Positions 13,415-61,111 of a stretch of 64,000 nt of DNA are shown here, in pieces (within the stretch, counting starts at the first letter, position 1; every line of letters begins with the position of its first letter). The DNA comes from an uncultured Gammaproteobacteria bacterium (GTDB lineage: Bacteria > Patescibacteriota > Microgenomatia > Levybacterales > UBA12049), in the NCBI GenBank assembly GCA_964553245.1, contig CAZKJM010000001.1, positions 296,977 through 360,976 of the forward strand, in the 5' to 3' direction. Made by a program: the position numbers and the translations under genes. The notes under the pieces were generated by a model. That model was not told the origin of the DNA. It searched no databases and worked only from the letters and a program-made list of their open reading frames with translations.

Positions 13415-13526
13415 TTTTATAGTTTATTTTCTGTTTCCTGTTTTCTAATTTCTATTTTATTTTTCTCTCGGGTACAGAGTGCTCTTGTTGAAGTGCTTTA
13501 CAAAAAGCACTCTGTAACCCTAAAGA

Positions 13527-14804: not shown

Positions 14805-14889
14805 CTTATTCACCTCCTCTCTTTCGTAAATTTCTTTCAAATCTTGAAAGATTGCACTTCTTTCTTCCGCGCCTTGTTTCTGTCTGCCT

Positions 14890-14955
14890 AAGCTTAAAGA
14901 AACAAAAAACGGAGGCTCCTTCATCCAACCTAAGTTAGATGAAAAAGCCTCCGTT
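14890..14955 (-). terminator. Long-stem intrinsic terminator downstream of the DUF2292 gene
   Basis: AAACGGAGGCTCCTTCATC...GATGAAAAAGCCTCCGTTT is an imperfect stem of about 17 bp. On the minus strand it is followed by GTTTTTTGTTTCTTT. Confidence 0.5.
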
Positions 14956-25007: not shown

Positions 25008-27338
25008 TTAATTTTCTGCTGGCTTATCCAACTCTTCTTTATTTATATGAGCTTCTGCTTTAGCGCTCATCTCTTTTAATTGTACGTGCTTTTTTTCTTT
25101 GGTGTCAATCAACGTTTCTTCTTCCTCTTCTTTTTTTGTAATTTCCGATAGAACTGTTTTTGCTGCCTCAAGCTTTGCTTTAAGATAAGAAATTACTTCT
25201 GTTTGGGAAAAACCTCCAATAAGAAGGAAGGGAAGAATTGTTCCAACAGATTCCATCCCCTTGTTGATATTTTGAGGATCACTTGATAAAAGCTCTGTAA
25301 TTGTCTGGTCTATTTTAGACACATCTTCTTTTATCCATTCTTTTCTGTTTCTCTCTTTTCCTTCCAATGCTTTCGGAACTTCAAGATTTTGGTAATTTTC
25401 TATCCAGATTTTTCTAACAGATTCATAATCGTCAATATTTACGGATTGAACCCTATTGGCAACAGGGAAATTGCCCGAAGGAGAAGTGGTTAAATCAAGT
25501 ATTCCTGCTTGTTGAAGAATTACGCTGGCAATTTCGTTTCCCTTTTCCTTTGCTTCTTTTATTTTTTGCTTAAGGTCTTCCGAAATTTCTCCATTTCCTT
25601 TTTCAGAAGCATCAAGGATAGAGCTAGCTAAAGAATCTCCGCCTTTTGAAGCTTCCGTAAGCTTTGCCTTAATTTCTTTTAATCTTTGTTTATCGTAAGA
25701 AGAGGTAGCGTTTTCGGGATTTGCCAAGTTTTGTAATACACCGATAAGTTTTATATTTTCAGCCGCCACTCCCAACGCCTGAGCCGGAGCCGCACCAGCT
25801 GCAATATTTGAGGCTGTAAGAATCGAACCAGCAAGCTGATTACCTTTTTGGCTTTCTGAAGAAAGCTTAGCACCAACAGAAGAATATTTTTCTCGTTCAA
25901 TAGTGGACACTGCGCTCTTTGGATTTGCAATTTTTTGAAGAGACTGATGCATTCGCATTACATCCTGGCTTCTTGCGCTTTCTTTAGAGAGAAGAGCTGT
26001 TTCGTATTTTGCAATATCCCTCATTGTAGGAATATTTAAGTTTGCAAGATTGGCTATTTCCATGTTTGCCTGTTTTATATGCATTCTTGCCGCTTGAGAC
26101 ATAAAAGTAGCGGAATCTGCTCTAACTTCAGGTATCTCTATCTTTGCTCCATAAGGAAGATTCTTTGCCAAACCGCCTGCGTAAGGCATTGTCGGAGAAA
26201 CCGGAGCAGGAGGATTTGAACCAGGAGCAACTTTGGCCATAAGATTTGACCCATTTGACATCAATTGCTTAAACCAATTATCCTCACCCTCAGATAATGA
26301 ATATATATAATCAAGAAATATCTGTAAAAGTAAAAACGGCAAAATAATTACAACCCAAAGCATTAAAAGAGCTACGATGTATAAAGCAAAAGTATCTTTA
26401 TTGTTAATGCTATTTGTTAACGATAAAATCTGCTGAGGACCTCCAAGTAAAATATTAATTGCTGTTGGATAAATAACATCGCTGTTTTTAGCAAAATTTA
26501 ACGGAATGTTTGTATCAGATCTCCATATCTGGACAAGTCCTGCTAGAAAAATTGCAAAAAGCGGTCCATATAAAAGCCAGCGGAAAAATTCACCAACCCA
26601 GATTTTTGCTGTATTTCGAATCGGAGAATAAAACAGTAATAATGGGAATATCGGGGAAATAATTATAAAAAACCAAAGAATAATTTTCCTAAGAAGAAGT
26701 ATGCCCGACATTACGTAATAGGTGAGAGCTGTAAGCTTTACTAAAAGAAGAGAAATAAAGACGGATTCATCGTATTCCGGACCATAAATTCTAAAACCCT
26801 GGAAATCCTTGTATCCAAAACCAATATTTAAGAGGTTTTTCTGGGATATTATCTGGGTGGGATTAGAACCGGGAACGGTTAAGAAGAAGCCTTGAATAAT
26901 ATCCATTATTTGATAAATAAATTGAACTAGAGCAAAGGAAAAGGTAATTAATATTACAATAAAAATAAATCTTGGAATAAAGCGCATTATTGTAATATTT
27001 TTGCCGCGCGTTATTATAAGCAAGAATGCTGTTCCCAAAACAAATAGAATTAAAAATGCATAAGTGATATTTCGGATATTCGCCCAAAATCCTGCAATTG
27101 GATTTGACTGCCCTTTTGCTACATAAGACCAGTTATATCTTTGTAATGTCCAGTCTAAAAACTCTCCTGATCTTGCTCCTGATTTTCCCGAAAATGTAAC
27201 ATCTGCGTCTTTTATCCATTGAGCTTCTGATTGCGTTGACGATTGTGAGCCTCCTGTTTGAGCATAAGTTTCTGAATTAAAAAATAGGAAGACTATAAGA
27301 GAAATTATTGTTAAAAATAGGGCAGTTATTTTTTTCAT
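25008..27338 (-). CDS. VirB6/TrbL-like polytopic membrane protein with a large C-terminal coiled-coil/hydrophilic domain
   Basis: 776 aa with a signal peptide, about 6 TM helices (residues 90-340) and a C-terminal extension of about 430 aa that is Ala/Lys/Glu-rich. This architecture matches ConG/TcpH/VirB6-type proteins. Confidence 0.4.
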   Translation of the reverse strand: MKKITALFLTIISLIVFLFFNSETYAQTGGSQSSTQSEAQWIKDADVTFSGKSGARSGEFLDWTLQRYNWSYVAKGQSNPIAGFWANIRNITYAFLILFVLGTAFLLIITRGKNITIMRFIPRFIFIVILITFSFALVQFIYQIMDIIQGFFLTVPGSNPTQIISQKNLLNIGFGYKDFQGFRIYGPEYDESVFISLLLVKLTALTYYVMSGILLLRKIILWFFIIISPIFPLLLFYSPIRNTAKIWVGEFFRWLLYGPLFAIFLAGLVQIWRSDTNIPLNFAKNSDVIYPTAINILLGGPQQILSLTNSINNKDTFALYIVALLMLWVVIILPFLLLQIFLDYIYSLSEGEDNWFKQLMSNGSNLMAKVAPGSNPPAPVSPTMPYAGGLAKNLPYGAKIEIPEVRADSATFMSQAARMHIKQANMEIANLANLNIPTMRDIAKYETALLSKESARSQDVMRMHQSLQKIANPKSAVSTIEREKYSSVGAKLSSESQKGNQLAGSILTASNIAAGAAPAQALGVAAENIKLIGVLQNLANPENATSSYDKQRLKEIKAKLTEASKGGDSLASSILDASEKGNGEISEDLKQKIKEAKEKGNEIASVILQQAGILDLTTSPSGNFPVANRVQSVNIDDYESVRKIWIENYQNLEVPKALEGKERNRKEWIKEDVSKIDQTITELLSSDPQNINKGMESVGTILPFLLIGGFSQTEVISYLKAKLEAAKTVLSEITKKEEEEETLIDTKEKKHVQLKEMSAKAEAHINKEELDKPAEN

Positions 27339-35570: not shown

Positions 35571-36986
35571 ATGAATAAATTCTATATTACAACTGCAATT
35601 GATTATGTTAATGACACAATTCATTTAGGGCACGCTTTTCAAAAAATAGCTGCCGATGTTTTGGCAAGACATAAAAGACATGAGCTTGGAAAAGAAAATG
35701 TTTTTTTTCTAACCGGAACCGATGAATATGGTCAAAAGGCAGAAAAAGCAGCCAGAGCATTAGGGGTTCAACCCCTAAAATATGTTAAAAAAATTTCTGA
35801 TTCAGATCAAAAACAGCAAGATGCTTTAAACATTTCTTACGATAGGTTTATAAGAACAACGGACACTGATCACGCAAAAGTAGTTAGCGAGATCTGGAAA
35901 AAAGTTGAGCAATCAGGCGATATATATAAAGGCGAATATTCAGGTCTTTATTGTGAGGGATGCGAGGGTTACTATACAGAAACCGATTTGGAAAATGGCA
36001 AGTGTCCTGTTCATCCTAGTTTAGAAGTAAAAAAAATAACTGAAGAAAATTATTTTTTCAAGTGGTCTAAGTACAAAAATTTTTTGATTGACCATATTAA
36101 AAACAATCCTGATTTTATTTTTCCAAAACACCGCGCTAACGAAATGCTGGAATTTGCAAAAGAAATTAAGGACATCCCCATATCAAGAACAAATTTTTCC
36201 TGGGGAATTCCTGTACCAAATAAACCAAGACAGGTTATTTATGTTTGGTTTGATGCTTTAATTAATTATTTAACCGGTATTGGATTTCTAGAAAATAAAA
36301 AAAACTTTGAAAAATTTTGGCCCGCTGACGTTCACATATTGGGAAAAGACAATCTTCGCTGGCATTCCCTACTTTGGCCAGCGATGCTTAAATCAGCCAA
36401 CCTTCCATTGCCAAAAACAATTTTAGTTAATGGATTTCTAAAATTGAATGGAGAAAAAATAAGTAAGTCTTTAGGAAATGTTATTAAACCAACAGAATGG
36501 GTCGAAAAATACGGAGCAGACGCAGTAAGATATTACTTGCTTAGACACACCGTCTTTACAGAAGATAGCGATATATCCGAAGAAAAACTAAAGCAAGCAT
36601 ATAACTCAGACCTTGCTAATGGACTTGGTAATTTAGTTGCTAGAGTTTTAAAACTGTCTAAAACTTCAGGCTTTTTGTATAAAACAACTGATAAAATAGT
36701 TTCCAATGATAAGGTTAAAAAACATATTCAAGAATTTTCCTTTAACTCAGCTCTTTTTCTTATTTGGCAACACATAGAACTAGTAAATAAAGAGATAAAT
36801 AACGATGAACCATGGAAAATTAAAGACAAAAATAAATTGCATGAAAAACTGCACTCCTATACAAAAGATATTCTTTTAATTGCCAATGACTTAAAACCAT
36901 TCCTGCCTCAAACCGCTGAAAAAATAGAAAATAAATTTATTGGGAATGTCAGTGAAGAAACTTCTCTTTTTCCAAGAATCCATTAA
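35571..36986 (+). CDS. metG: Methionyl-tRNA synthetase (short form without the C-terminal tRNA-binding domain)
   Basis: 471 aa. It has the HIGH-type motif (TIHLGHAFQ), KISKSLGNVI (KMSKS), zinc knuckles (CEGCEGYY...GKCPVH) and a MetRS anticodon-binding domain. Confidence 0.85.
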   Translation: MNKFYITTAIDYVNDTIHLGHAFQKIAADVLARHKRHELGKENVFFLTGTDEYGQKAEKAARALGVQPLKYVKKISDSDQKQQDALNISYDRFIRTTDTDHAKVVSEIWKKVEQSGDIYKGEYSGLYCEGCEGYYTETDLENGKCPVHPSLEVKKITEENYFFKWSKYKNFLIDHIKNNPDFIFPKHRANEMLEFAKEIKDIPISRTNFSWGIPVPNKPRQVIYVWFDALINYLTGIGFLENKKNFEKFWPADVHILGKDNLRWHSLLWPAMLKSANLPLPKTILVNGFLKLNGEKISKSLGNVIKPTEWVEKYGADAVRYYLLRHTVFTEDSDISEEKLKQAYNSDLANGLGNLVARVLKLSKTSGFLYKTTDKIVSNDKVKKHIQEFSFNSALFLIWQHIELVNKEINNDEPWKIKDKNKLHEKLHSYTKDILLIANDLKPFLPQTAEKIENKFIGNVSEETSLFPRIH

Positions 36987-38716: not shown

Positions 38717-40213
38717 ATGCATAAATTTTTTGATAAAGTTTTCACGCGCTATCCAATAAAAACCAGAAGAGCTTTAGAAATATTGCCCGGTTTTTTTTCG
38801 TGGTCGCTAATTACTTTTCCGGTTTGGGGATCATTATTAATCCCCTATTATCTAGCTTATTTTATTTTATTTTTTGATATCTATTGGTTCTACAAATCTT
38901 TTGCCTTAGCAATAACTTCATACATTTCCTCAAGAAAAATTGCAGAATCAGAAAAAACAGACTGGAATAAAAAAGCAAGAAAATTGGAAAATTATAACAA
39001 GATGACTCATATTGCAATAATTCCAAACTATACGGAAAAGGCTGAAAAATTAAGGATAACCATTGAATCTTTAGCAAAGCAGACATTCCCTGCAAGAAGA
39101 ATTTACGTTATTTTAGCAATGGAAAAAAGAGAAAAAGACGCAAAGAAAAAATCAGATGAATTAATTAATATCTTTAAAAAAACTTTCGGTGATATTTTTG
39201 CAACGTTTCATCCAGACATAGAAGGAGAAGTAAAAGGAAAATCTTCAAACGAGGCTTATGCAGGAAAAACCGCTTACAAAAATTTAGTTCTTTCAAAAAA
39301 AATAGATTTGGATTACGCAACTATTTCTTCCGTTGACGCAGATTCTATTTTTGACAAGCAATATTTTGCTTATTTAACTTATAAGTTCTTAAACGATCCC
39401 AAGAAACACAACAAATTCTGGCAATCAGCAACTATTTACTACAGTAATATTTGGAAAGTTCCTGCTCCTACAAGAATCATTTCTTTTTTTGGAAGTCTTT
39501 GGAATACTGCGGTTCTAGTGCACAAAAACAGACTTATTACAAATGCTACATACTCGACGTCTCTTAAATTAATGAAAGAAATAGACTTTTGGGATACCGA
39601 CGTAATTCCCGAAGATTATCGAATTTTCTTTAAAGCTTTTTATAAAAAATTTGGGAATGTTTGGATAGATCCGATTTTTTTAAGAACATCTATGGATGCC
39701 GCTATGTCCTCCGGATATGTTAAGAGCCTAAAAAATAAGTATGATCAAGAAAGACGTTGGGCATGGGGAGCATCTGATGATTACTTGTTTATCAAATGGT
39801 GGCTTACTGTTCCAAATGTTCCTTTTGTCAGAAAGACCCTTATGCTCTTTCCTGTAATAAGAGACCATTTTCTATGGCCGACTAATTGGTTTATAATTAC
39901 AATAGCAGCCAATATTATGCCGTTAATTAATCCTGTTTTTTCAAGAACAACAATAGGATATAATTTACCAAAATTAGCAGGATTTATATTGACTTCTTCC
40001 ATGTTTTCACTTTTGGCGATGCTTATTGTTGATATAAAAAACAGACCATCGCATCTACCAAAACCTTCAAAGAAAAAGCAATTTTTATTCCCGATTGAAT
40101 TTGTTTTACTTCCGATTGTTGGGTTTTTCCTTTCAAGCCTGCCTGCACTTGTTTCCCATACTCAACTTTTACTTGGAAAAAGGTTAGAATATAAAGTAAC
40201 GGAAAAAATATGA
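38717..40213 (+). CDS. Membrane-embedded processive family-2 glycosyltransferase (cellulose/chitin/hyaluronan-synthase-like, QxxRW motif)
   Basis: 498 aa. It has 2 N-terminal TM helices, a GT-A domain with Asp motifs (SSVDADS) and QERRWAWG, and 4 or more C-terminal TM helices. Confidence 0.65.
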   Translation: MHKFFDKVFTRYPIKTRRALEILPGFFSWSLITFPVWGSLLIPYYLAYFILFFDIYWFYKSFALAITSYISSRKIAESEKTDWNKKARKLENYNKMTHIAIIPNYTEKAEKLRITIESLAKQTFPARRIYVILAMEKREKDAKKKSDELINIFKKTFGDIFATFHPDIEGEVKGKSSNEAYAGKTAYKNLVLSKKIDLDYATISSVDADSIFDKQYFAYLTYKFLNDPKKHNKFWQSATIYYSNIWKVPAPTRIISFFGSLWNTAVLVHKNRLITNATYSTSLKLMKEIDFWDTDVIPEDYRIFFKAFYKKFGNVWIDPIFLRTSMDAAMSSGYVKSLKNKYDQERRWAWGASDDYLFIKWWLTVPNVPFVRKTLMLFPVIRDHFLWPTNWFIITIAANIMPLINPVFSRTTIGYNLPKLAGFILTSSMFSLLAMLIVDIKNRPSHLPKPSKKKQFLFPIEFVLLPIVGFFLSSLPALVSHTQLLLGKRLEYKVTEKI

Positions 40214-41682
40214 AAACCTTAAGACTTCTTGAAAGAAGCAAAAGTTTTTGGTTTATTTTTACAAATCTACTCTTATTCTTTTTTTTAAGATTCCCCTCAC
40301 TTTTTGAACCATATTGGTATGGAGACGAGGGAATATATCAAGTTTTAGGAATGGGAATTAATAACGGTCGTATTTTATATCAACAAATTTTTGACAATAA
40401 ACCTCCTCTTTTATACATATTTTATAGTCTTTTTAACGGAGATCAATTTTATTTAAGATTAGCTTCTTTGGTCTTTGGTTTTTTTGCAATAGTCACTTTT
40501 TTTTACCTGGCAAAAAAGCTTTTTAAGAAAAATAACGCCGCATACATTTCTACATTTTTATTTACGTTTTTATTCGGCTTACCACTCATAGAAGGAAATA
40601 TTGCCAATGCCGAAAATTTTATGCTTTTTCCCATTCTTTCTGCTTTATATCTAGCAATTGACCATATCAACACAAAGCTCGAACGGAAAATGTTTTTTTG
40701 GTCAGGAATAATCTTGGGAATAGCATTTCTATTTAAAATCGTTGCTGTTTTTGACTTTTTAACACTGCTTATATTTTTATTAATAATAAGAACTCCAAAA
40801 ATTCTTGGAATAAAACTTAAGTCACAATTATTTTTAGAATTAAAAGACCTGTATTCTTTAATTATTGGGTTTTTAATTCCAATAATCGTAACTGCAATTT
40901 ATTTTATATCTATAAATGCTTACTCCGATTTTATAACTGCAACTTTCTTTTCCAATGTTGGTTATGTTGGTTATCATAATAAATTAATTATTCCACAAGG
41001 CTTTTTAATATTAAAATTAATACTTTTAAGTTTGTTTATTTTATTTGTTTTTGCAAGAAGAAATAAACTGTCTACAGAGGCAATATTTATATGGACTTGG
41101 CTTTCTTTTTCTCTTTTTAATGCGCTTTTTTCCCAAAGACCTTATACGCATTACTTATTAACACTCTTGCCAAGTTTTGCATTATTAATAGGTTTATTAT
41201 TTGTCGATAAAAAATTTCTTAAATTTAATCTCTTGCTAAGCGTTACCGTTATAATAATTGCTCAATCAAATTTCTGGATTTATTCTAAGAATTTAAAATA
41301 TTATAAAAACTTTATCGACTTTACCATTGGAAATAAATCTGTTTCCTCTTATCAGAATTTCTTTGATAGAAATACTCCCGTAGATTATCAGATTTCCCGA
41401 TATATTAAGGGAAAAATAAACCTGAATGATTCTATTTTTATCTGGGGAAATAATGCACAGCTTTATAAATTAACAGGAAAACTTCCTCCGGGAAAATATG
41501 CAGTAGCTTATCATATTGTAAATTATAAAGACGGTCTTAAAAATACAGGTGAGCAGCTTGAGAAAATAAAACCTAAGATAATAATCAATATGCCTAATGT
41601 GGCAAATTACCCATTCTCTCTTTCTCACTACAAGCCTTCAATTATGATAAATAATGTTCAAATTTATGAAAGAGTTTTTTAA
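40210..41682 (+). CDS. GT-C family glycosyltransferase (PMT_2/ArnT-like, GT39/83)
   Basis: 490 aa polytopic protein. The first extracytoplasmic loop carries YGDEGIY, a DE-type motif. Its start overlaps the GT2 stop (ATGA). Confidence 0.5.
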   Translation: MKTLRLLERSKSFWFIFTNLLLFFFLRFPSLFEPYWYGDEGIYQVLGMGINNGRILYQQIFDNKPPLLYIFYSLFNGDQFYLRLASLVFGFFAIVTFFYLAKKLFKKNNAAYISTFLFTFLFGLPLIEGNIANAENFMLFPILSALYLAIDHINTKLERKMFFWSGIILGIAFLFKIVAVFDFLTLLIFLLIIRTPKILGIKLKSQLFLELKDLYSLIIGFLIPIIVTAIYFISINAYSDFITATFFSNVGYVGYHNKLIIPQGFLILKLILLSLFILFVFARRNKLSTEAIFIWTWLSFSLFNALFSQRPYTHYLLTLLPSFALLIGLLFVDKKFLKFNLLLSVTVIIIAQSNFWIYSKNLKYYKNFIDFTIGNKSVSSYQNFFDRNTPVDYQISRYIKGKINLNDSIFIWGNNAQLYKLTGKLPPGKYAVAYHIVNYKDGLKNTGEQLEKIKPKIIINMPNVANYPFSLSHYKPSIMINNVQIYERVF

Positions 41683-42019
41683 AAACATCAAGAATGACAG
41701 ATTAACTTCAAGAGGATATTATCTAACTTTCTTTTTGAACATATTAACAATTATCTATGCTTTGTTCTATTTAAATAGCCTTCCTCCTTTTATTCCTCTT
41801 TTTAACCAGCTTCCATGGGGAGAGAAAAGGCTTATTACATCAATTGGAATATTTCTACCTATTTTTGTCGCTATTGCAATCTCTTTATTTAATCTATTTT
41901 TCTCAACTTTTATTTATAAAAAAAATCCTCTTATACCAAGGATTTTTACGCTAACGAGTCTTTTAATTTCGATTTTGACACTTCTTTTTGTAATTAGAAC
42001 TATTCAAATTGTTCTTTAG
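41654..42019 (+). CDS. Small hydrophobic membrane protein
   Basis: 121 aa with 3 TM helices. It overlaps the previous gene. Confidence 0.3.
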   Translation: MFKFMKEFFKNIKNDRLTSRGYYLTFFLNILTIIYALFYLNSLPPFIPLFNQLPWGEKRLITSIGIFLPIFVAIAISLFNLFFSTFIYKKNPLIPRIFTLTSLLISILTLLFVIRTIQIVL

Positions 42020-42021
42020 AA

Positions 42022-43062
42022 ATGTTAAATACTACTAATTTAATCTTAATTCCATTTATTATTTCTTTTTTGTTAACTGTGGCGGCAACTCCACTTTCCT
42101 TAATTTTTATTAAAAAATACAAATTGATTGATGATCCCAAAAAAAGAAAACACCCTGCAATTATACATAAAAAACCTACTCCAAGAGGAGGAGGAATTCC
42201 CCTGTTTATTGGAACTATTGTTACAGGATTGTTTTTTTTGCCAATAACAAAAGTTACAATCGGAATTTTTATCGCATCGTTTTTATCGCTTGTTATTGGA
42301 ATACTGGACGATAAATATGACATTTCTCCTTATTTAAGATTTATTGTAAATATAATTTCCGCAATGATTGTTGTTTTTACAGGAGCAAATATTTTATTTA
42401 TTACAAATCCGTTTGGTGGAATTCTAAATTTGAATTTTCTTTCATACTTTGCGTCTATGCTCTGGATTATATGGGTAATGAATATGTTAAATTGGAGCAA
42501 GGGCGTAGATGGGCAAATGCCCGGAATTGTCACGATATCAGCAATTATTATTGGTTTCTTAAGTCTTCGTTTTAACGCAACTGATCAAAATACAATAATC
42601 AGCACTACTCTTTCATTTATTATTGCAGGTGCATCTTTAGGTTTTTTATTATTTAATTTTTATCCTGCAAAAATATTCCCAGGATATGGCGCAACCGCTA
42701 TTTACTTACTACTTGCGGTTGCATCAATACTGTCATCTGCAAAGCTTGCAACGGCAATTTTAGTTATGGGAATTCCGATGGTTGATGGCGTATTTACAAT
42801 TATAAGAAGAGTTCTTAGTGGAAAATCTCCTTTTTGGCATGACAACAAACATCTTCATCATCTTTTATTAAAAAAGGGTTGGAGCGTTAAAAAAATTGCA
42901 TTGTTTTATTGGTTTATTTCTGCTATATTGGGGGCAATTTCGCTACTTTTATCAAGTAAAGAAAAATTATTCGCAATAATAATGTTGGCGATTATAGTTG
43001 GAGGAGGAATATTGTTTCTTCAGCTAACAATAAAAAGCGAAGAAAATGAAAATAGCATTTGA
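42022..43062 (+). CDS. Polyprenyl-phosphate N-acetylhexosamine-1-phosphate transferase (WecA/TagO/MraY family, GT4)
   Basis: 346 aa. It has DDxxD (ILDDKYD), NxxNxxDGxDG-like (NMLNWSKGVDGQ) and about 10 TM helices. Its size fits WecA rather than MraY. Confidence 0.7.
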   Translation: MLNTTNLILIPFIISFLLTVAATPLSLIFIKKYKLIDDPKKRKHPAIIHKKPTPRGGGIPLFIGTIVTGLFFLPITKVTIGIFIASFLSLVIGILDDKYDISPYLRFIVNIISAMIVVFTGANILFITNPFGGILNLNFLSYFASMLWIIWVMNMLNWSKGVDGQMPGIVTISAIIIGFLSLRFNATDQNTIISTTLSFIIAGASLGFLLFNFYPAKIFPGYGATAIYLLLAVASILSSAKLATAILVMGIPMVDGVFTIIRRVLSGKSPFWHDNKHLHHLLLKKGWSVKKIALFYWFISAILGAISLLLSSKEKLFAIIMLAIIVGGGILFLQLTIKSEENENSI

Positions 43063-43987
43063 AATTTTTAGACTTTTAAGACCAAGACAATGGATTAAAA
43101 ACCTTGCGATTTTTGCCGCGATTATTTTTGCTGGAGAATTATTTAATTTTCCGGTTTTTGAAAAAGTTTTAATCGGTTTTTTTGTTTTCTGTGGACTTTC
43201 TTCCGCGACCTATATTATTAATGATCTTTTTGACATAGAAAAAGACCGACTTCACCCGTTTAAAAAATACCGCCCACTTGCAAATAAAAAGGTGCCTGTT
43301 CCTTTGGCAATAGTCATTGCCTGTGTTTTAATATTGTCATCGCTAACAACCAGTCTTTTTGTAACACCTGCTTTCGCGATAACTGCTTTTGTTTATTTAA
43401 TAATTCAGTTCTCTTACTCATTCCATCTTAAAACTATTGCGGCAATCGATATTTTGGTTATTGCTACAGGATATATTATCCGGGTTTATGCCGGAGAATT
43501 TGCCAGTGGTTTTCATACGTCTGTATGGATGTTGTTAACTACAATTTCGTTTTCTCTATTCTTAGCTGTTGGAAAAAGAAGATCGGAATTAACCTTACTT
43601 TCAAACAGTAAAGTTGCAAATATTGCCGCTACGAGAAAATCGCTCTCTCATTATTCCGACAGATTATTAGATGTTTATGCATCGATTTTCGCAACTTCCA
43701 CTTTTATTACTTATTCCCTTTTTACTTTTTTGGAAAATCCTAAAGGAGTAAGAATATCTTTAGATATTTTTTTTCCGGATTTCCTACCTGCATTCTTTCA
43801 AAAAAAATGGTTGATGATCACAATAATCCCCGTCGTATATGGAATAATGCGCTATCTTCAAGATATTTATGAAAAAAATGAAGGAGAGAGTCCTGAAAAA
43901 GTATTGTTGTCAGATAAGCCTTTGTTAATAAACGTTATTCTTTGGGTGTTTTTAGTTATTCTTATAATTTATTTTATCGGGGCTTAA
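43046..43987 (+). CDS. UbiA-family prenyltransferase, decaprenyl-phosphate phosphoribosyltransferase (DPPR synthase)-like
   Basis: 313 aa. N-terminal RPRQWIKN and the Asp-rich motif YIINDLFDIEKDRLHP match DPPRS-type UbiA proteins. It overlaps the WecA-like gene. Confidence 0.6.
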   Translation: MKIAFEIFRLLRPRQWIKNLAIFAAIIFAGELFNFPVFEKVLIGFFVFCGLSSATYIINDLFDIEKDRLHPFKKYRPLANKKVPVPLAIVIACVLILSSLTTSLFVTPAFAITAFVYLIIQFSYSFHLKTIAAIDILVIATGYIIRVYAGEFASGFHTSVWMLLTTISFSLFLAVGKRRSELTLLSNSKVANIAATRKSLSHYSDRLLDVYASIFATSTFITYSLFTFLENPKGVRISLDIFFPDFLPAFFQKKWLMITIIPVVYGIMRYLQDIYEKNEGESPEKVLLSDKPLLINVILWVFLVILIIYFIGA

Positions 43988-44841
43988 TCCTCAACTTGAG
44001 CATATTGACTACTTATCCAACCCAATATTCCGCCAGAAAGCTTTATTTGATACCATCCTGTTTCTTCACTTATTAATTCGTATTTTTCTCCCGGATTTAC
44101 TTGACTTATCTGTAAAGAAGATAAAGACGCATCTTCTCTTACTCTTAAAAAACCTGTTGGGGTTTGAAGAATAATAACTTGTTTTATGGTTGTTGGACTA
44201 ATAGATGGAGTAATAGAAGGTGTAATAGTTGGTATTGCAGAAGATGATGTATTTTCGGAAACTGCCAAAAACACAACCGCTTCAAGGCGATGTCCTTTAA
44301 GTGCCCTTATTCTTAAGTTTTTTTCAGCATATCCTTCTTTTGCAATCTTTAACTCATGATCTGATTCTGTTATTCCTTTTAACAAAAGCGGTGTCATCCC
44401 CGAAGGGGTATTGCTATTATCAAGATTAACAAATGTTTTATCCGGAAAAGAAATAATAGACACTTGTGCATCGTTTTTGTCCCTTATTTTAGTAAGACTA
44501 ATTATGCTTCCCGATGAAAATGCTCCCTCGCCAAAAATCCTGTCTATAACAGTAAGCACTCCTGATGTTATCGTTATTTTTTCTTCAAAGCTTCTATAAT
44601 TTCCGGACAGCGGAATAAGTTTTACTGTATGTGTACCAACCGTAATCATTTCTTTAAAATCATCACATTTACAAAGGGGTGTCTCACCGATATTTTTACC
44701 ATCTAAATAAACTCTGCTTTTTGGTACTGATGTAACCTGAAGTGCTCCTTTTCCCGAATCCCTATTCAAAAAATAAGTGATTATTAAAAAAATTCCAACA
44801 ATAAATAAAGATAATCCAATAAAAAGCAGTACTTTTTTCAT
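43984..44841 (-). CDS. Membrane-anchored protein with PEGA domains and a C-terminal bacterial SH3 domain
   Basis: 285 aa with a TM helix. It has two PEGA-like modules (VTSVPKSRVYLDGKNIGETP). The C-terminal GWYQIKLSGGILGWISSQY is SH3b-like. Confidence 0.5.
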   Translation of the reverse strand: MKKVLLFIGLSLFIVGIFLIITYFLNRDSGKGALQVTSVPKSRVYLDGKNIGETPLCKCDDFKEMITVGTHTVKLIPLSGNYRSFEEKITITSGVLTVIDRIFGEGAFSSGSIISLTKIRDKNDAQVSIISFPDKTFVNLDNSNTPSGMTPLLLKGITESDHELKIAKEGYAEKNLRIRALKGHRLEAVVFLAVSENTSSSAIPTITPSITPSISPTTIKQVIILQTPTGFLRVREDASLSSLQISQVNPGEKYELISEETGWYQIKLSGGILGWISSQYAQVED

Positions 44842-53456: not shown

Positions 53457-54901
53457 TGAAAAAAAGTTTTTGGAATAAAAAAATCCCAACTCTTTTGGGA
53501 TTAATATTAATCACCATCGGCATCGGAGTAACTTCTTATTTTATAAAACAAGGGGTATTTTATATAATTAAAGCCACCCCCACAAATAACCCTCAAGATG
53601 TAAGAATTACTAACATAACTGATTCTTCATTTACTGTTTCTTACTCAACAAAAGAAAAAGTATTGGGATCGTTAAACTATGGAGAAAACGAAGCTCTTAA
53701 TAAAAAAGTTCTTGATGACAAAGACCAGCAATCCGGTAATTTAACGCCCAAAATAATACATAATATTACCGTTAGAAACTTAAAACCATCAACGAAATAT
53801 TATTTCTCGATAACAAGCGGCAATGAAACATATCTTAATAATGAAATTCCCTACGAAATATTAACAGGAACCATGATTAAAGCAGAACCGCCTGACCAAG
53901 AACCATTAAGCGGAAAAATTCTTTTACCAAACGGAGACGCGCCATTAGAAGCAGTTGTTTACGCAACCATAAAAGATGCTCAAATAATTTCAACTTATGT
54001 AAAAAATGATGGAACATATATATTACCTCTTAATTCATTAAGAACCGCCGATTTAAAATCATATTTGACGCTAAAAGAAGACATGAATATTAAACTGCTA
54101 ATGGTTGGTGACAATTATTCTTCCAATGTTATTGTATTAAGAAAACAAATAAATCCCGTTCCATTAGTAACCCTTTCAAAAAACTACGATTTTACAACCA
54201 GTTTTGATGAAGAATCAACAGAATCGGCTAAGTTTGAAAAATTTCCTTCATTCCCAGCAATCTCAACTGATAGAACCGCAGGCGAACCGGAAATAATTAC
54301 ACCTCAAAATAATCAGGAATTTTCTGATGATCAACCAAGATTTAACGGCAAGGCCTTACCAAATGAAAGTGTTAAAATAATTATTAATTCCGACAATAAA
54401 ATAGAAACAGAGATAAAAGCAGATATTTACGGAAACTGGAGCTTTAGACCAACAGAGCCACTCTCTCCGGGTGAGCACACAATTTCGATAATTACAAGGG
54501 ATACGCAGCAAATTTTAAGAACAATTACCAATTCATTCACTGTTTACGCTTCGGGCAGTAAGTTTACAGATACTGTCTCTCCAACGCCAACAATAGCAAT
54601 AACACAAACCCCAACTATTACCATAACTCCCACTATTCAACCATCAATTACCACAACGCCGACAATAACAATAACGCCCATACCAACATCAACCCCAGTT
54701 TCAACAATAACCCCTATGCCAACAACTGAACCAATTATTATATCTAGTCCCACCCCTACTATTGTTGTAATTACTCCAATCCCTACACCAACCAGTCCTG
54801 GAAGCAACTCTGTAATCAATATGGGGATTATTGGTATTATCACTGCCTTTGTTGGTATAATTTTACTTCTTATAAGCCGCGGGAGCATTTCTTTTATATG
54901 A
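53456..54901 (+). CDS. Membrane-anchored surface protein with Ig-like/FN3-like domains, a Pro/Thr/Ile-rich repeat stalk and a C-terminal TM helix
   Basis: 481 aa. The bacterial Ig-like motif is PRFNGKALPNESV...DIYGNWSF...LSPGEHTI. The stalk is (TPTITITPT)n. The C-terminal hydrophobic anchor is IIGIITAFVGIILLLI. Confidence 0.4.
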   Translation: MKKSFWNKKIPTLLGLILITIGIGVTSYFIKQGVFYIIKATPTNNPQDVRITNITDSSFTVSYSTKEKVLGSLNYGENEALNKKVLDDKDQQSGNLTPKIIHNITVRNLKPSTKYYFSITSGNETYLNNEIPYEILTGTMIKAEPPDQEPLSGKILLPNGDAPLEAVVYATIKDAQIISTYVKNDGTYILPLNSLRTADLKSYLTLKEDMNIKLLMVGDNYSSNVIVLRKQINPVPLVTLSKNYDFTTSFDEESTESAKFEKFPSFPAISTDRTAGEPEIITPQNNQEFSDDQPRFNGKALPNESVKIIINSDNKIETEIKADIYGNWSFRPTEPLSPGEHTISIITRDTQQILRTITNSFTVYASGSKFTDTVSPTPTIAITQTPTITITPTIQPSITTTPTITITPIPTSTPVSTITPMPTTEPIIISSPTPTIVVITPIPTPTSPGSNSVINMGIIGIITAFVGIILLLISRGSISFI

Positions 54902-56184
54902 AAATTGGAATAATTGGCGCCGGATTAACCGGATTAACTGCTGCCTATGAATTGTCAAAAAAAGGACATGATGTTATCGTGTTCGAAAAAGAAAATATCC
55001 CAGGAGGATTTGCATCTGGATTCAAAAATAGCCATTGGGAATGGCAACTTGAAAGATATTATCACCATTGCTTTACAAACGATAATTCTATTTTAGAATT
55101 AGCAAAAGAAATTAATTTTAATTTTTTAAGAATTCGACCTAAAACGGCAACATTTATAAATAGAAAAATTTACCAACTAGACTCTCCTGTAACTTTACTA
55201 AAATTTCCTTTATTAAATCCTCTTCAGCGATTAAGAATGGGTATAAGTCTTGCTCTTCTTAGATATAATCCATTTTGGAAATTAACTGAATCGAAAAAAG
55301 CAAGTGAGATTTTACCAAAATTAATGGGCAAAAAGGGGTATGAATTGATTTGGGAACCACTATTTAAAAATAAATTTTCAACTTTCAAGCGCCAAATTTC
55401 TCTTGTATGGTTTTGGGCAAGAGTAAAAAAAAGAACTACGGAACTAACGTATCCTGAGGGAGGATTCCAAAAATTTATAGAAAAATTAACCGAAGCGATT
55501 AAGAAAAAAAACGGATTAATCTTTTTAAATAATGAAGTTGTAAAAATAAAAGAAAATGAAAAAATCTTCATTACAACTAAAACCAAAAATGGCGAATTAA
55601 ATAATCATCAATTTGATAAGATTATTTTTACATTACCATCGAAACTTTTTATTAAAATTAATCCATCAACACCAAAGACATATAGAGAAAAACTTTTAAA
55701 ATTTAAGTATTTATGCGTCCATAATCTTGTTCTAAGACTTAAAGAACCATTTTTAAAAAATGACACCTATTGGTTAAATATTTGCGATGAAAAATCTCCA
55801 GTAACTGGAGTTGTTGAGCATACTAATTTTATAGATAAAAAATACTATAAAAATGAACACATTATATATTTATTAAACTATCTTGAAAAAACAGACAAAA
55901 GATATAAGATGGACGCTTGTGAACTTGTTAATTTTTATGATTCATTTTTAACAAAAATAAATAAAAACTATAAGAAAAATATAATTGGAATAAAACTTTT
56001 CAAAGACGATTTTGCGCAAACAATAATTTCCACAAATTATTCAAAAAATATTTTGCCCTTTACAACACCTTTTAAAAACATTTATCTTGCTAATTCAAGT
56101 CAAGTTTATCCCTGGGACAGAGGCACTAATTATGCTGTTGAGTTAGGAAAAAAGATTGCTAAATTTGTTAATAAAAAAGGGTAA
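54898..56184 (+). CDS. glf: Flavin-dependent UDP-galactopyranose mutase-like protein (Glf/UGM family) or related NAD(P)/FAD Rossmann oxidoreductase
   Basis: 428 aa. It has the dinucleotide-binding motif IGIIGAGLTGLTAAYEL...GG. YYHHCFTNDNSILE aligns with the UGM motif GPHIFHTDNETVW. Confidence 0.45.
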   Translation: MKIGIIGAGLTGLTAAYELSKKGHDVIVFEKENIPGGFASGFKNSHWEWQLERYYHHCFTNDNSILELAKEINFNFLRIRPKTATFINRKIYQLDSPVTLLKFPLLNPLQRLRMGISLALLRYNPFWKLTESKKASEILPKLMGKKGYELIWEPLFKNKFSTFKRQISLVWFWARVKKRTTELTYPEGGFQKFIEKLTEAIKKKNGLIFLNNEVVKIKENEKIFITTKTKNGELNNHQFDKIIFTLPSKLFIKINPSTPKTYREKLLKFKYLCVHNLVLRLKEPFLKNDTYWLNICDEKSPVTGVVEHTNFIDKKYYKNEHIIYLLNYLEKTDKRYKMDACELVNFYDSFLTKINKNYKKNIIGIKLFKDDFAQTIISTNYSKNILPFTTPFKNIYLANSSQVYPWDRGTNYAVELGKKIAKFVNKKG

Positions 56185-57823: not shown

Positions 57824-57846
57824 TTTTAATAGAATATTATAACGAT

Positions 57847-60039: not shown

Positions 60040-61111
60040 TAATACAATCATCCTTATATATCTCGCAGTTTAAATATTCTTTTATTTCACTATAGTTTCC
60101 GTTTCCTATTCTTGGAACAAGTACCCATTCATAATTATACTCATTCGTAGACTCCGGATTAATTAAAAGACCTTCTTTGTTGCCTAAATTATCTCCGACA
60201 TTAAGAGTCACGCTCTTAATCTCCGCTGCTTTTAATTTCTGAGCTAATCTTAAAAAATCATCAAATTCTTCTTTTTTAATATTTGTGTCTATGCTACTAC
60301 TTAAAACATCATAAAGATCTAAAAATTTAACGGGGTTTAAAAACATTTGCATCGAAAAAACTTTATCCTTAAAAGACTTTATAATTTTTTCCTGCCTTTT
60401 GCTTCTAGCAAAATCCGAACCTTCGGTTCCTTTTGCGTGTCTTGATCTAACAAATTGTAAAGCCGTCTTACCATCCATATGTTGTAAGCCTTTGTTAAAA
60501 TGTAAATGCTCATAGCGACAAGGAAATGCATCCAACTGCGATGATGCTGTTGCAAGTCCTTCCAACTCTTCTTCCTTATGCCCACAAGGATCGTTCTCCT
60601 TGCCTTCGATTGGATATTCAAAATCATCAAATGAATTCTCCACGCTTACATCTAACCCGCCAATCAGATCTACGGCCTTTACGAAACCATTAAAGTCAAT
60701 TCTAAACGTATAATCTATTTGTAGATTTGTAATTTTTTTTACAACCGCTTGGGACAAAATTATCCCTCCACCTTTTTTTTTACTCTCCCCGGTTGAATAA
60801 GCAGTATTTACTTTTGCATTAAGCTCCGATAACCATAGATCTCTTGGTAATGATATCAGCGTTACCTTATCGTTTTTAGGACTTATACTAGCTATCATAA
60901 TGGTATCTGTTAAATTTGGTCCATCATGATTTTCCCCACCAATTCCTAAAAGCAGTATATTTAATCTTTTGTTTTCCGATTTCACTTTTATTTCACTGTT
61001 AAAGATTAATTCAAATAAAAATGGAACAAAATTTAAGGCTCTAATAGCCGTTCTACCGATAAAAAAAATTAATATCAAAATTAATATTGCAGGAATTATT
61101 TTTTTACGCAT
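60026..61111 (-). CDS. LytR-CpsA-Psr (LCP) family cell-wall glycopolymer phosphotransferase
   Basis: 361 aa with an N-terminal TM helix. The motifs are LLLGIGGENHDGPNLTDTIMIASISPKNDKVTLISLPRDLW and RSRH. Confidence 0.75.
   Translation of the reverse strand: MRKKIIPAILILILIFFIGRTAIRALNFVPFLFELIFNSEIKVKSENKRLNILLLGIGGENHDGPNLTDTIMIASISPKNDKVTLISLPRDLWLSELNAKVNTAYSTGESKKKGGGIILSQAVVKKITNLQIDYTFRIDFNGFVKAVDLIGGLDVSVENSFDDFEYPIEGKENDPCGHKEEELEGLATASSQLDAFPCRYEHLHFNKGLQHMDGKTALQFVRSRHAKGTEGSDFARSKRQEKIIKSFKDKVFSMQMFLNPVKFLDLYDVLSSSIDTNIKKEEFDDFLRLAQKLKAAEIKSVTLNVGDNLGNKEGLLINPESTNEYNYEWVLVPRIGNGNYSEIKEYLNCEIYKDDCIIKEI

What the first reader, a model, noticed from the sequence alone, without database searches (positions are those of the whole stretch)
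38717..43987. Operon for lipid-linked glycan assembly: processive GT2 (QxxRW), ArnT/PMT-like GT-C, WecA-like initiating transferase and a decaprenyl-phosphoribose-synthase-like UbiA enzyme
Five plus-strand genes with overlapping stops and starts encode the following. (i) A membrane-embedded GT2 with the QERRWAWG signature of processive beta-glycan synthases. (ii) A GT-C enzyme with a DE-type loop motif (YGDEGIY). (iii) A small membrane protein. (iv) A polyprenyl-phosphate HexNAc-1-P transferase (DDxxD, NxxNxxDGxDG). (v) A UbiA-family protein whose motifs (RPRQWIKN; NDLFDIEKDRLHP) match decaprenyl-phosphate 5-phosphoribosyltransferases. In Corynebacterineae these make the lipid-linked arabinofuranose donor used by GT-C arabinosyltransferases. 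Together with the Glf-like, GT-C and LCP genes at 54.9-61.1 kb, this reconstructs most of an arabinogalactan-like pathway. That pathway runs from linker-unit initiation, through galactofuranose or pentofuranose donors and polymerisation by GT2 and GT-C, to LCP ligation to peptidoglycan. I have not seen this established for this kind of organism.
Basis: partly seen in the sequence, partly recalled or inferred. Interest (0 to 1): 0.7.

Follow-up and report, generated by a model that had tools for sequence, protein, structure and literature searches.

The report
Lipid-linked pentose glycan operon in CPR

Summary
The five plus-strand genes exist exactly as described. The UbiA-family protein is a genuine DPPRS/PPPRS-type phosphoribosyltransferase. 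It scores 235.5 bits against a curated cutoff of 207, matches M. tuberculosis Rv3806c at E=6e-44 over its full length, and keeps all 12 PRPP/Mg-binding residues plus Lys191.

The organism is a Levybacteria-like CPR bacterium. Across 59 non-duplicate CPR loci the UbiA gene travels with the GT4 gene (58), the GT2 (50), a PEGA/SH3 protein (50), a 3-TM protein (at least 41) and a GT-C (38). None of these partners flank UbiA in non-CPR genomes.

The arabinogalactan reading fails on several points:
- No DprE1/DprE2 was found in the window or in any CPR locus, although positive controls were detected.
- The flavoprotein at 54898 is a PRK07233 amine-oxidase-type protein, not a UGM.
- The GT-C is ArnT-like, not Emb/Aft-like.
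- The "WecA-like" enzyme lacks two conserved active-site aspartates in all 61 orthologs.

The best fit is a CPR variant of the known extracytoplasmic pentofuranose-addition systems (Kelly et al. 2024), with ribofuranose as the default sugar. Databases already name the enzyme, and I found no paper describing the operon. Interest is moderate.

The parts
38717..40213 (+). Membrane-embedded GT2 with a cellulose-synthase-like fold. A processive synthase role is plausible but unproven.
40210..41682 (+). GT-C fold glycosyltransferase (ArnT/PMT-like), predicted to use a polyprenyl-phosphate-linked sugar outside the cytoplasm.
   Evidence: Pfam PMT_2 at E=1.6e-9 and PMT at E=4.3e-7. The loop EPxWYGDEGxY (E33-Y43) is invariant in 45 homologs. 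The AF2 model has pLDDT 86.9 and pTM 0.88. All significant Foldseek hits are GT-C enzymes. The best superposition is ArnT 5f15 (TM 0.58/0.54), and AftB and AftA are weaker. Sources name homologs GT39 or 'phospholipid carrier-dependent glycosyltransferase'. The gene is in the operon in 38 of 59 CPR loci.
41666..42019 (+). Small 3-TM membrane protein (117 aa; an alternative start at 41654 gives 121 aa). It is a conserved accessory subunit of unknown role, either a candidate flippase or a synthase partner.
   Evidence: No Pfam family at E<=1. A positional ortholog lies between GT2/GT-C and GT4 in 57 of the 58 loci examined, with a conserved loop LPPxxPxF(N/Y)(Q/S)LPWGExxL after TM1. A Pseudomonas GtrA-like probe gave no hit to this ORF.
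42022..43062 (+). PNPT-superfamily (MraY/WecA fold) polyprenyl-phosphate phosphoglycosyl transferase of a CPR-specific subfamily with a non-canonical active site.
   Evidence: PF00953 at E=2.1e-25. The TIGR02380 wecA model scores 102 bits against a cutoff of 326, and the mraY model scores 50 against 192. The best PDB matches are MraY 5jnq and 9zno. In all 61 CPR orthologs the GDxGS Asp is Tyr or Phe, and the first Asp of DGxDG is not Asp (Lys in 46, otherwise Ser, Thr, Ala or Asn). The DD pair, the second Asp and H-x-H-H are retained. The gene is adjacent to UbiA in 58 of 59 CPR loci.
43046..43987 (+). DPPRS/PPPRS-type enzyme: PRPP:polyprenyl-phosphate 5-phosphoribosyltransferase of the UbiA superfamily.
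   Evidence: NF008978 at 235.5 bits, above its cutoff of 207. PDB 8j8j (Rv3806c) at E=5.9e-44, aligning residues 7-304 to 17-295, with 36% identity. R22, K28, Y70, N73, D77, K87, R90, Q135, Y138, K143, Y157, K208 and K191 of Rv3806c are all conserved. There are 6421 homologs at E<=1e-10, and the nearest are named decaprenyl-phosphate phosphoribosyltransferase in Levyibacteriota/Patescibacteria.
43984..44841 (-). Membrane-anchored PEGA + SH3b protein with a Ser/Thr/Pro-rich linker. It is a conserved convergent neighbour and a possible wall-associated partner or acceptor; this role is speculative.
   Evidence: PEGA at E=1.3e-12 and SH3_3 at E=5.2e-12. Present in 50 of 59 CPR loci next to UbiA. 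The linker VSENTSSSAIPTITPSITPSISPTT is 68% S/T/P. The median maximum S/T/P fraction in orthologs is 0.52, against 0.32-0.36 in control proteins.

Best explanation
This is a core, lineage-conserved cell-envelope glycan operon of Microgenomates-group CPR bacteria. It is built around a lipid-linked pentofuranose donor.

Step 1 (strongly inferred): the UbiA-type enzyme transfers 5-phosphoribose from PRPP to polyprenyl phosphate on the cytoplasmic face, as Rv3806c and Citrobacter ORF15 do.

Step 2 (no gene identified): the 5-phosphate is removed. With no epimerase evident, the donor stays polyprenyl-P-ribofuranose.

Step 3 (inferred): the donor is flipped. The 3-TM protein is the only unassigned membrane component in the operon.

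Step 4 (inferred from fold and synteny): the ArnT-like GT-C transfers the pentofuranose to an acceptor outside the membrane.

Acceptor (inferred from synteny only): the acceptor is most likely a glycan made by the two other invariant partners. The atypical PNPT would prime a polyprenyl-P carrier and the cellulose-synthase-like GT2 would extend it. An LCP enzyme could then attach the product to peptidoglycan.
For: DPPRS identity:
- Curated-model score above cutoff.
- Full-length match to Rv3806c.
- All PRPP, Mg and lipid-phosphate contact residues defined structurally (PMC10994848) are conserved. Ten of the 12 PRPP/Mg residues, plus Lys191, are invariant in all 62 CPR sequences.

Known framework: PPPRS + flippase + GT-C systems add Ribf by default, and auxiliary epimerases switch the sugar to Araf or Xylf (PMC11127046).

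GT-C: the model is confident and ArnT-like, with an invariant DE loop. A second GT-C of PMT type directly follows UbiA in 8 other CPR loci, which reinforces the link between UbiA and GT-C enzymes.

Synteny: GT2, 3-TM, GT4 and UbiA co-occur in 50-58 of 59 CPR loci, down to 39% UbiA identity. They never co-occur in the 24 non-CPR loci.

Translational coupling: the ORFs overlap.

Context: the operon sits among housekeeping genes such as MetRS, TatD, GroEL/ES, LepA and MurJ. This indicates a core function and not an accessory island.

LCP is present in the window.
Against: - No 5'-phosphatase (HAD/PRP, PAP2 or DUF212 type) and no recognisable MATE, SMR or GtrA flippase is in the operon, the window or the recurrent CPR neighbourhood. 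The 'three-component' set is therefore incomplete as seen.
- The GT-C is missing from the held +/-10 kb in 21 of 59 CPR loci.
- The PNPT lacks two conserved active-site Asp residues, including the one aligned with the Mg-chelating Asp252 of DPAGT1. Its substrate, and even its activity, are uncertain.
- The functional linkage of the five genes rests on synteny alone.
- Only 64 kb of a 561-kb contig was visible, so epimerases or phosphatases may lie elsewhere in the genome.
Confidence: 0.55

Rival explanations
1. One reading: an arabinogalactan-like pathway. DPPRS would feed a polyprenyl-P-arabinofuranose donor, a UGM would supply galactofuranose, GT2 and GT-C enzymes would polymerise, and LCP would ligate the product to peptidoglycan.
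Against: - DprE1-like and DprE2-like probes hit nothing in the window or in about 60 CPR loci, yet found both genes beside UbiA in L067-L069.
- The flavoprotein at 54898 has no GLF domain. It matches NF005560/PRK07233 over its full length at 390 bits, and its best PDB sequence hits are amino-acid and monoamine oxidases.
- The GT-C is PMT_2/ArnT-like. AftA and AftB are much weaker matches.
- The GT2 is a membrane-embedded synthase-like enzyme, unlike GlfT1/GlfT2.
Confidence: 0.05
2. Protein O-glycosylation. The donor chemistry is the same, but the GT-C transfers the pentofuranose to Ser/Thr-rich surface proteins such as the adjacent PEGA/SH3 protein, pilins or an S-layer protein. This would resemble P. 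aeruginosa TfpW arabinosylation of pilin or actinobacterial PMT.
For: The GT-C hits PMT/PMT_2, and NCBI names its homologs GT39. A bona fide PMT + PMT_4TMC enzyme follows UbiA in 8 CPR loci. The conserved PEGA/SH3 neighbour has an S/T/P-rich linker. PilN and PilO lie 8 kb downstream, with conserved synteny. Precedent comes from the P. aeruginosa pilin Araf system cited in PMC11127046.
Against: This model does not explain the invariant GT2 + PNPT partners, which imply a lipid-primed glycan. The best structural match of the GT-C is ArnT, a lipid-acceptor enzyme, ahead of the PMTs. The S/T/P enrichment is modest and not universal, reaching 0.6 or more in only 20 of 49 orthologs. The Pseudomonas GT-C probe does not detect the window GT-C.
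Confidence: 0.2
3. The genes are conserved neighbours but not one pathway. The GT2 with the 3-TM protein would make one polymer, the PNPT would prime another, and the UbiA product would serve a GT-C encoded elsewhere. The synteny would reflect the frozen gene order typical of small CPR genomes.
For: Unrelated housekeeping genes (MetRS, TatD, GroEL/ES, LepA) are almost as syntenic as the operon genes. The GT-C is dispensable in the operon in 21 of 59 loci.
Against: Start/stop overlaps between successive genes suggest translational coupling. GT4-UbiA adjacency (58 of 59) and GT2 co-occurrence (50 of 59) exceed those of the housekeeping neighbours (TatD 47, MetRS 43, GroEL 30) and persist to 39% UbiA identity. 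All four enzymes act on, or depend on, polyprenyl-phosphate-linked substrates by family.
Confidence: 0.15
4. The UbiA protein is an aromatic or isoprenoid prenyltransferase (quinone, heme O, chlorophyll or archaeal-lipid type) and not a phosphoribosyltransferase.
For: It belongs to Pfam UbiA. JGI labels some homologs '4-hydroxybenzoate polyprenyltransferase'.
Against: Non-DPPRS UbiA models score 46 bits or less, against 165-235 bits for DPPRS-type models. The phosphoribose- and pyrophosphate-binding residues, which are not conserved between Rv3806c and UbiA prenyltransferases (PMC10994848), are all present.
Confidence: 0.02

Closest known systems
Three-component extracytoplasmic pentofuranose glycosylation systems (Citrobacter youngae O1/O2 ORF15 PPPRS-PRP, ORF14 MATE, ORF12 GT136; Kelly et al. 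2024, PMC11127046)
   Same: A UbiA-type PRPP:polyprenyl-P phosphoribosyltransferase is encoded next to a GT-C enzyme. Ribofuranose is the default sugar when no epimerase gene accompanies the system. The donor is a polyprenyl monophosphate sugar used outside the cytoplasm.
   Different: There is no fused or neighbouring 5'-phosphatase and no MATE/SMR/GtrA flippase. The GT-C is PMT_2/ArnT-like, and GT136 membership was not tested. The invariant partners here are an atypical PNPT, a cellulose-synthase-like GT2 and a 3-TM protein, none of which belong to the described systems. It is a core gene set in a housekeeping region and not part of an O-antigen or serotype locus. No CPR example appears in that paper or its supplement.
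Mycobacterial decaprenyl-phospho-arabinose pathway (Rv3806c DPPRS, Rv3807c, DprE1/DprE2, Rv3789, Emb/Aft GT-Cs, WecA, Lcp1)
   Same: The enzyme is 36% identical to Rv3806c with a fully conserved active site. The same genome region also encodes a PNPT, a GT-C and an LCP.
   Different: No DprE1/DprE2, no Rv3807c-type phosphatase, no GtrA-like Rv3789, no Emb/Aft-type GT-C, no UGM and no GlfT-type GT2 were found in the visible DNA. Arabinose and galactofuranose are therefore not indicated.
Pseudomonas D-arabinofuranose pilin glycosylation cluster (PPPRS, DprE1/E2 homologs, GT-C; seen here in loci L068/L069)
   Same: A PPPRS homolog (about 40% identity) is adjacent to a GT-C. Type IV pilus genes are nearby in the CPR window.
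   Different: The Pseudomonas loci carry DprE1-like, DprE2-like, GtrA-like and DUF212-like genes next to UbiA. The CPR loci carry none of them.
ArnT (GT83) and protein O-mannosyltransferases (GT39)
   Same: The window GT-C has the same fold (TM 0.58 to ArnT 5f15), hits PMT_2/PMT, and has an invariant Asp-Glu pair in the first outer loop.
   Different: The donor here is inferred to be a pentofuranose, not Ara4N or mannose, and the acceptor is unknown. At about 490 aa the protein lacks the MIR and PMT_4TMC modules of true PMTs.
WecA/TagO/MraY (PNPT superfamily)
   Same: It has the PF00953 domain, a comparable length (346 aa), the DD pair, the second Asp of DGxDG, and an H-L-H-H motif resembling the WecA HIHH motif (this last comparison is from my own knowledge).
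   Different: It scores far below the WecA and MraY equivalog cutoffs. The Asp aligned with the Mg-chelating Asp252 of DPAGT1 is Tyr or Phe, and the Asp aligned with B. subtilis MraY D174 is replaced, most often by Lys, in all 61 orthologs.
Membrane-integrated GT2 synthases (BcsA, hyaluronan synthases) and the minimal cellulose-synthase-like PcManGT
   Different: Sequence identity is only 10-14%. There is no PilZ or other regulatory module. It is paired with a dedicated 3-TM protein. Its product and processivity are unknown.

Membership tests
DPPRS/PPPRS (PRPP:polyprenyl-phosphate 5-phosphoribosyltransferase, UbiA superfamily) | Scores above the curated cutoff of a DPPRS equivalog model and well above other UbiA clades | tested here: met
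   NF008978 scores 235.5 bits against a cutoff of 207. NF008977 (212.8 against 234) and NF008976 (184.5 against 474) fall below their cutoffs. The best non-DPPRS-type UbiA model scores 45.9 bits.
DPPRS/PPPRS (PRPP:polyprenyl-phosphate 5-phosphoribosyltransferase, UbiA superfamily) | Residues that bind PRPP pyrophosphate, ribose, 5-phosphate and Mg in Rv3806c: R22, K28, Y70, N73, D77, K87, R90, Q135, Y138, K143, Y157, K208 | tested here: met
   All 12 are identical in the window protein, and 10 of the 12 are invariant in 62 CPR sequences. Residue roles are taken from PMC10994848.
DPPRS/PPPRS (PRPP:polyprenyl-phosphate 5-phosphoribosyltransferase, UbiA superfamily) | Lipid-phosphate contacts K28, Y157 and K191, and full-length homology to the solved enzyme | tested here: met
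   K191 is invariant. 8j8j matches at E=5.9e-44 over residues 7-304.
DPPRS/PPPRS (PRPP:polyprenyl-phosphate 5-phosphoribosyltransferase, UbiA superfamily) | Catalytic activity with PRPP and polyprenyl phosphate | not testable with these tools
   This needs a membrane assay of the kind used in PMC11127046.
Three-component pentofuranose glycosylation system (Kelly et al. 2024) | A PPPRS gene clustered with a GT-C gene | tested here: met
   The two genes are in the same operon in the window and in 38 of 59 CPR loci. A PMT-type GT-C follows UbiA in 8 loci.
Three-component pentofuranose glycosylation system (Kelly et al. 2024) | A 5'-phosphoribose phosphatase (a fused HAD PRP domain or a separate phosphatase) | tested here: not met
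   The UbiA protein is 313 aa with no extra domain. No HAD, PAP2 or DUF212 hit appears in the window or among recurrent CPR neighbours. The rest of the genome was not visible.
Three-component pentofuranose glycosylation system (Kelly et al. 2024) | A dedicated MATE or SMR/GtrA-type flippase in the cluster | tested here: inconclusive
   No such gene is in the operon. The conserved 3-TM protein has no Pfam match and is not detected by a GtrA-like probe. The MurJ gene 6 kb away scores as canonical MurJ.
Three-component pentofuranose glycosylation system (Kelly et al. 2024) | The GT-C belongs to GT136 | not tested
   No GT136 sequence or model was available. The window GT-C hits PMT_2 and superposes best on ArnT.
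Mycobacterial-type arabinogalactan pathway | A DprE1/DprE2 epimerase pair converting polyprenyl-P-ribose to polyprenyl-P-arabinose | tested here: not met
   tblastn with the Pseudomonas DprE1-like and DprE2-like proteins gave hits only in L067-L069, and none in the window or any CPR locus. This is limited to the DNA held.
Mycobacterial-type arabinogalactan pathway | A UDP-galactopyranose mutase (GLF domain) | tested here: not met
   The protein at 54898-56184 matches Amino_oxidase, DAO and NAD_binding_8 with no GLF domain at E<=0.001. It matches NF005560/PRK07233 at 390 bits. PDB UGM sequences match only at E=2e-4 to 7e-3.
Mycobacterial-type arabinogalactan pathway | Emb/Aft-type arabinosyltransferase GT-C | tested here: not met
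   There is no Arabinose_trans hit. AftB 9dlh (E=3e-3, TM 0.37) and AftA 8if8 (E=9e-3, TM 0.40) rank well below ArnT.
Mycobacterial-type arabinogalactan pathway | An LCP ligase and a PNPT initiator are present | tested here: inconclusive
   LCP is confirmed (PF03816 at E=1.1e-31). The PNPT is present but has an atypical active site.
WecA/TagO-type PNPT | PF00953 domain and an equivalog-level score | tested here: inconclusive
   The domain is present at E=2.1e-25, but TIGR02380 scores only 102 bits against a cutoff of 326.
WecA/TagO-type PNPT | Conserved active-site aspartates: the Asp aligned with DPAGT1 D252 / AaMraY D265 / BsMraY D231, and the Asp aligned with BsMraY D174 | tested here: not met
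   The first is Tyr or Phe in 61 of 61 orthologs. The second is not Asp in any of the 61 (Lys in 46, otherwise Ser, Thr, Ala or Asn). Residue roles are from PMC6218659 and PMC5039524.
Processive membrane GT2 synthases (BcsA/HAS/chitin synthase type) | D, DxD, (E/T)ED and QxxRW motifs | tested here: met
   D207-A-D209, E299-D300 and Q344-E-R-R-W348 are invariant in 41 sequences.
Processive membrane GT2 synthases (BcsA/HAS/chitin synthase type) | A GT-A domain packed against a TM bundle that forms a polymer channel | tested here: inconclusive

The most novel reading that the evidence does not exclude
Microgenomates-group CPR bacteria make a lineage-wide, possibly essential envelope polymer by a pathway not yet described. 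In it, a PRPP-derived polyprenyl-phospho-pentofuranose (probably ribofuranose) donor is obligatorily coupled to three partners: an aspartate-less, possibly metal-independent PNPT; a cellulose-synthase-like GT2; and a dedicated 3-TM subunit. This would be a new architecture for wall-glycan assembly and not merely a side-chain decoration system.
Probability: 0.25. Interest if true: 0.65.

Novelty: new variant of a known kind. Interest (0 to 1): 0.45.

Why it matters
Little is known about the CPR cell surface, although it mediates their episymbiotic attachment to hosts. A conserved, core-genome operon that diverts PRPP into a lipid-linked pentose donor points to a specific and testable envelope component, such as a ribofuranose-containing glycan or glycoprotein, in a large uncultured radiation.

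It also extends the recently defined PPPRS + GT-C glycosylation logic beyond the Proteobacteria, Bacillus, mycobacteria and phage examples known so far.

Finally, it exposes a PNPT subfamily in which two conserved active-site aspartates, one of them aligned with the Mg-chelating Asp of DPAGT1, are systematically replaced. That is of mechanistic interest for a well-studied antibiotic-target family.

Tried and rejected
- An Rfam scan of the window found nothing.
- The promoter/terminator scan of 37.4-44.9 kb gave counts equal to the shuffled expectation and is uninformative.
- Sequence searches of the PDB gave no hits for the GT2 or the GT-C even at E<=1, so structure prediction was needed.
- The small 3-TM protein has no Pfam hit at E<=1 and no similarity to a GtrA-like probe. 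I could not assign it a function.
- Literature searches combining CPR/Patescibacteria with DPPRS, arabinofuranose, LCP/WecA, GT136/PPPRS or the KEGG IDs K14136/K16652/K16653 returned nothing relevant.
- Clustering all ORFs near UbiA in 59 CPR loci to find a hidden phosphatase or epimerase yielded only housekeeping or wall-related genes: Cpn10, M23 peptidase, RmuC, MurB, bPH_2, a solute-binding protein, VanW and a PMT-type GT-C.
- I considered the PRK07233 flavoprotein as a possible DprE1 substitute. It never co-occurs with UbiA in any fetched locus, so I dropped the idea.
- I could not scan the rest of the 561-kb source contig.

Full report
**Observation**

The window has five + strand ORFs at 38717-40213, 40210-41682, 41654/41666-42019, 42022-43062 and 43046-43987. 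Three of the four junctions overlap and the fourth is a 2-nt gap. Pfam and NCBIfam assign four of them:
- Glyco_trans_2_3 (GT2)
- PMT_2/PMT (GT-C)
- Glycos_transf_4 (PNPT)
- UbiA

The 117-121-aa protein has no family, even at E<=1.

**Organism and context**

GC content is about 0.33. The exact UbiA protein lies on a 561,761-bp NCBI contig. Its nearest named relatives are from Candidatus Levyibacteriota and other Patescibacteria, which belong to the Microgenomates group. The operon sits among housekeeping genes: MetRS, D-Ala-D-Ala ligase and TatD upstream, then a PEGA/SH3 protein, GroEL, LepA, MurJ and PilN/PilO downstream.

**The UbiA protein is a DPPRS-type phosphoribosyltransferase**

- It scores 235.5 bits on NCBIfam NF008978 (cutoff 207), and 213, 185 and 165 bits on three related models. 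Every other UbiA clade (heme O, chlorophyll, 4-HB, GGGP) scores 46 bits or less.
- It aligns over its full length with M. tuberculosis Rv3806c (8j8j, E=5.9e-44) at 36% identity.
- The cryo-EM paper on Rv3806c names the residues that bind PRPP, Mg and decaprenyl phosphate. It states that the phosphoribose-binding sites are not conserved between Rv3806c and UbiA prenyltransferases (PMC10994848). All twelve PRPP/Mg residues and Lys191 are identical in the window protein. Ten of the twelve, plus Lys191, are invariant across 62 CPR sequences.

NCBI and JGI already apply the DPPRS name to many of the 6421 homologs, so the gene call itself is not new.

**Known framework**

Kelly et al. 2024 (PMC11127046) showed that a PPPRS, a flippase and a GT-C form a widespread system. 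It adds pentofuranose to glycans outside the cytoplasm. The default product is polyprenyl-P-ribofuranose. DprE1/E2 homologs convert it to the arabinose donor, and an ORF13-type epimerase converts it to the xylose donor. Their examples are Proteobacteria, a Bacillus and a phage. CPR bacteria are mentioned neither in the text nor in the supplement.

**Synteny**

A scan of species-representative genomes returned 80 loci. About 60 are CPR: Levy-, Gottesman-, Collier-, Davies-, Ames- and Cerribacteria, WWE3, and bins labelled Saccharimonadales. The rest are Chloroflexi, Acidobacteriota, Rokubacteria, Pseudomonas and an actinobacterium.

In 59 non-duplicate CPR loci, UbiA co-occurs with the following:

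| Partner | Loci out of 59 |
|---|---|
| PNPT (GT4) | 58 |
| GT2 | 50 |
| PEGA/SH3 protein | 50 |
| TatD | 47 |
| MetRS | 43 |
| 3-TM protein | at least 41 |
| GT-C | 38 |

None of these partners flanks UbiA in the 24 non-CPR loci. The invariant core is GT2 - 3-TM - PNPT - UbiA. The GT-C is missing from the operon in the Davies/Collier/Gottesman-type loci. A second GT-C of true PMT type directly follows UbiA in eight other loci.

**Tests of the arabinogalactan model**

The Pseudomonas locus L068 carries, beside UbiA, a GT-C, a DprE2-like SDR, a DprE1-like FAD protein, a GtrA-like protein and a DUF212-like phosphatase. Used as tblastn probes, the DprE1-like and DprE2-like proteins hit only L067-L069. 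They hit nothing in the window or in any CPR locus. No phosphatase or epimerase family recurs near CPR UbiA genes, and none is present in the window.

The 'Glf-like' protein at 54898-56184 matches Amino_oxidase and NF005560/PRK07233 over its full length (390 bits). It has no GLF domain, and its PDB sequence matches to oxidases are better than those to UGMs. The pentose is most simply ribofuranose, but only 64 kb of the genome was visible.

**The GT-C**

The AlphaFold model is confident (pLDDT 86.9, pTM 0.88), and every significant Foldseek hit is a GT-C enzyme. ArnT superposes best (TM 0.58/0.54). Oligosaccharyltransferases and PMTs follow, and AftB and AftA are weaker. The loop EPxWYGDEGxY is invariant.

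**The GT2**

**The PNPT is atypical**

Alignment to MraY structures and to 61 CPR orthologs shows two changes. The Asp of the GDxGS motif is always Tyr or Phe. The first Asp of DGxDG is never Asp; it is Lys in 46 orthologs and otherwise Ser, Thr, Ala or Asn. The DD pair, the second Asp and H-x-H-H are retained. In DPAGT1 the first of these aspartates, Asp252, chelates the catalytic Mg. The D252A mutant keeps 7% of activity, and D252N is 5-fold more active (PMC6218659). In B. subtilis MraY the equivalents, D231 and D174, are catalytically important (PMC5039524). The WecA and MraY equivalog scores fall far below their cutoffs. The enzyme is therefore a conserved, selected and non-canonical PNPT. 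Calling it WecA-like is correct only at superfamily level.

**Mechanism proposed**

- Strongly inferred: PPPRS makes polyprenyl-P-ribose-5-P from PRPP.
- Inferred from fold and clustering: the ArnT-like GT-C transfers the pentofuranose outside the membrane.
- Inferred from synteny only: the PNPT and the GT2 make the acceptor glycan, the 3-TM protein is a flippase or a synthase subunit, and LCP (60026-61111) anchors the product.
- Missing: the 5'-phosphatase, a recognisable flippase, and any epimerase.

A protein-acceptor version is a serious rival. In its favour are the PMT-type naming of the GT-C, the second PMT-type GT-C, the S/T/P-rich linker of the conserved PEGA/SH3 neighbour, and the nearby pilus genes.

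**Novelty and score**

The enzyme name is already in databases and the system type is published. The CPR-specific partner set, the core-genome location and the aspartate-less PNPT are not described in the library I searched. I rate this a new variant of a known kind, with interest 0.45.

Noticed in passing
window 42022-43062; also the GT4 ORFs of loci L002-L061 and L066: The PNPT that always accompanies the CPR DPPRS gene lacks two conserved aspartates of the MraY/WecA/GPT active site. GDxGS reads G(Y/F)G, and DGxDG has no first Asp (Lys in 46 of 61 orthologs, otherwise Ser, Thr, Ala or Asn). This holds for all 61 orthologs, which suggests a mechanistically distinct and possibly metal-independent subfamily.
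   Followed up: partly
window 54898-60039 (+): A second putative glycan module: a PRK07233/amine-oxidase-type flavoprotein (428 aa), overlapping a 555-aa protein with no Pfam hit, followed by a 730-aa DUF2298/chlor_Arch_YYY membrane protein (TIGR03662, 504 bits). An LCP gene lies convergent at 60026-61111. The function is unknown. The flavoprotein is not a UGM and never co-occurs with UbiA in the fetched loci.
   Followed up: partly
loci L049-L058, for example L050:10917-12641 (+): In eight CPR loci a 575-aa PMT + PMT_4TMC (protein O-mannosyltransferase-type) GT-C lies immediately downstream of the DPPRS gene, in addition to the operon GT-C.
   Followed up: partly
window 43984-44841 (-): The conserved convergent neighbour is a membrane-anchored PEGA + SH3b protein with a Ser/Thr/Pro-rich linker (VSENTSSSAIPTITPSITPSISPTT). 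It is a possible O-glycosylation acceptor or wall-binding partner.
   Followed up: partly
loci L016-L019, L021, L023, L029, L031-L035, L039, L041 and others: Record titles say 'uncultured Gammaproteobacteria' or 'Pseudomonadales'. The seven such loci whose composition I checked have 37-44% GC, and all of the listed loci carry CPR-type genes around UbiA at 47-67% UbiA identity (the longer ones show MetRS-TatD-GT2-GT4-UbiA). These bin labels look wrong.
   Followed up: partly
locus L068:5238-11289 (Pseudomonas sp.) and L067 (Rokubacteria): L068 has a complete Araf-type cluster around UbiA: a GT-C, a DprE2-like protein, a DprE1-like protein, a GtrA-like protein and a DUF212-like phosphatase. In L067 the DprE1-like and DprE2-like probes hit 0.2-2.3 kb downstream of UbiA. 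Both loci served as positive controls.
   Followed up: yes
window 16659-19064 (-) and 22321-25002 (-), with 19471-21759 (-) between them: Two ClpB/AAA_2-type ATPase genes flank a secreted M4 (thermolysin-like) peptidase gene. A 776-aa membrane protein with a weak TrbL/VirB6 hit follows at 25008-27338.
   Followed up: no
window 7234-14924: A surface-protein cluster: an RTX-repeat protein (7234-8667), a sortase (9405-9956) and three large ORFs with no Pfam hits (10025-11191, 11222-13414, 13527-14924).
   Followed up: no
window 36949-36986: The 3' ends of the MetRS gene (+) and the D-Ala-D-Ala ligase gene (-) overlap convergently by 38 nt. The ligase is not at this position in most relatives, with a blast hit only in L046.
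   Followed up: no
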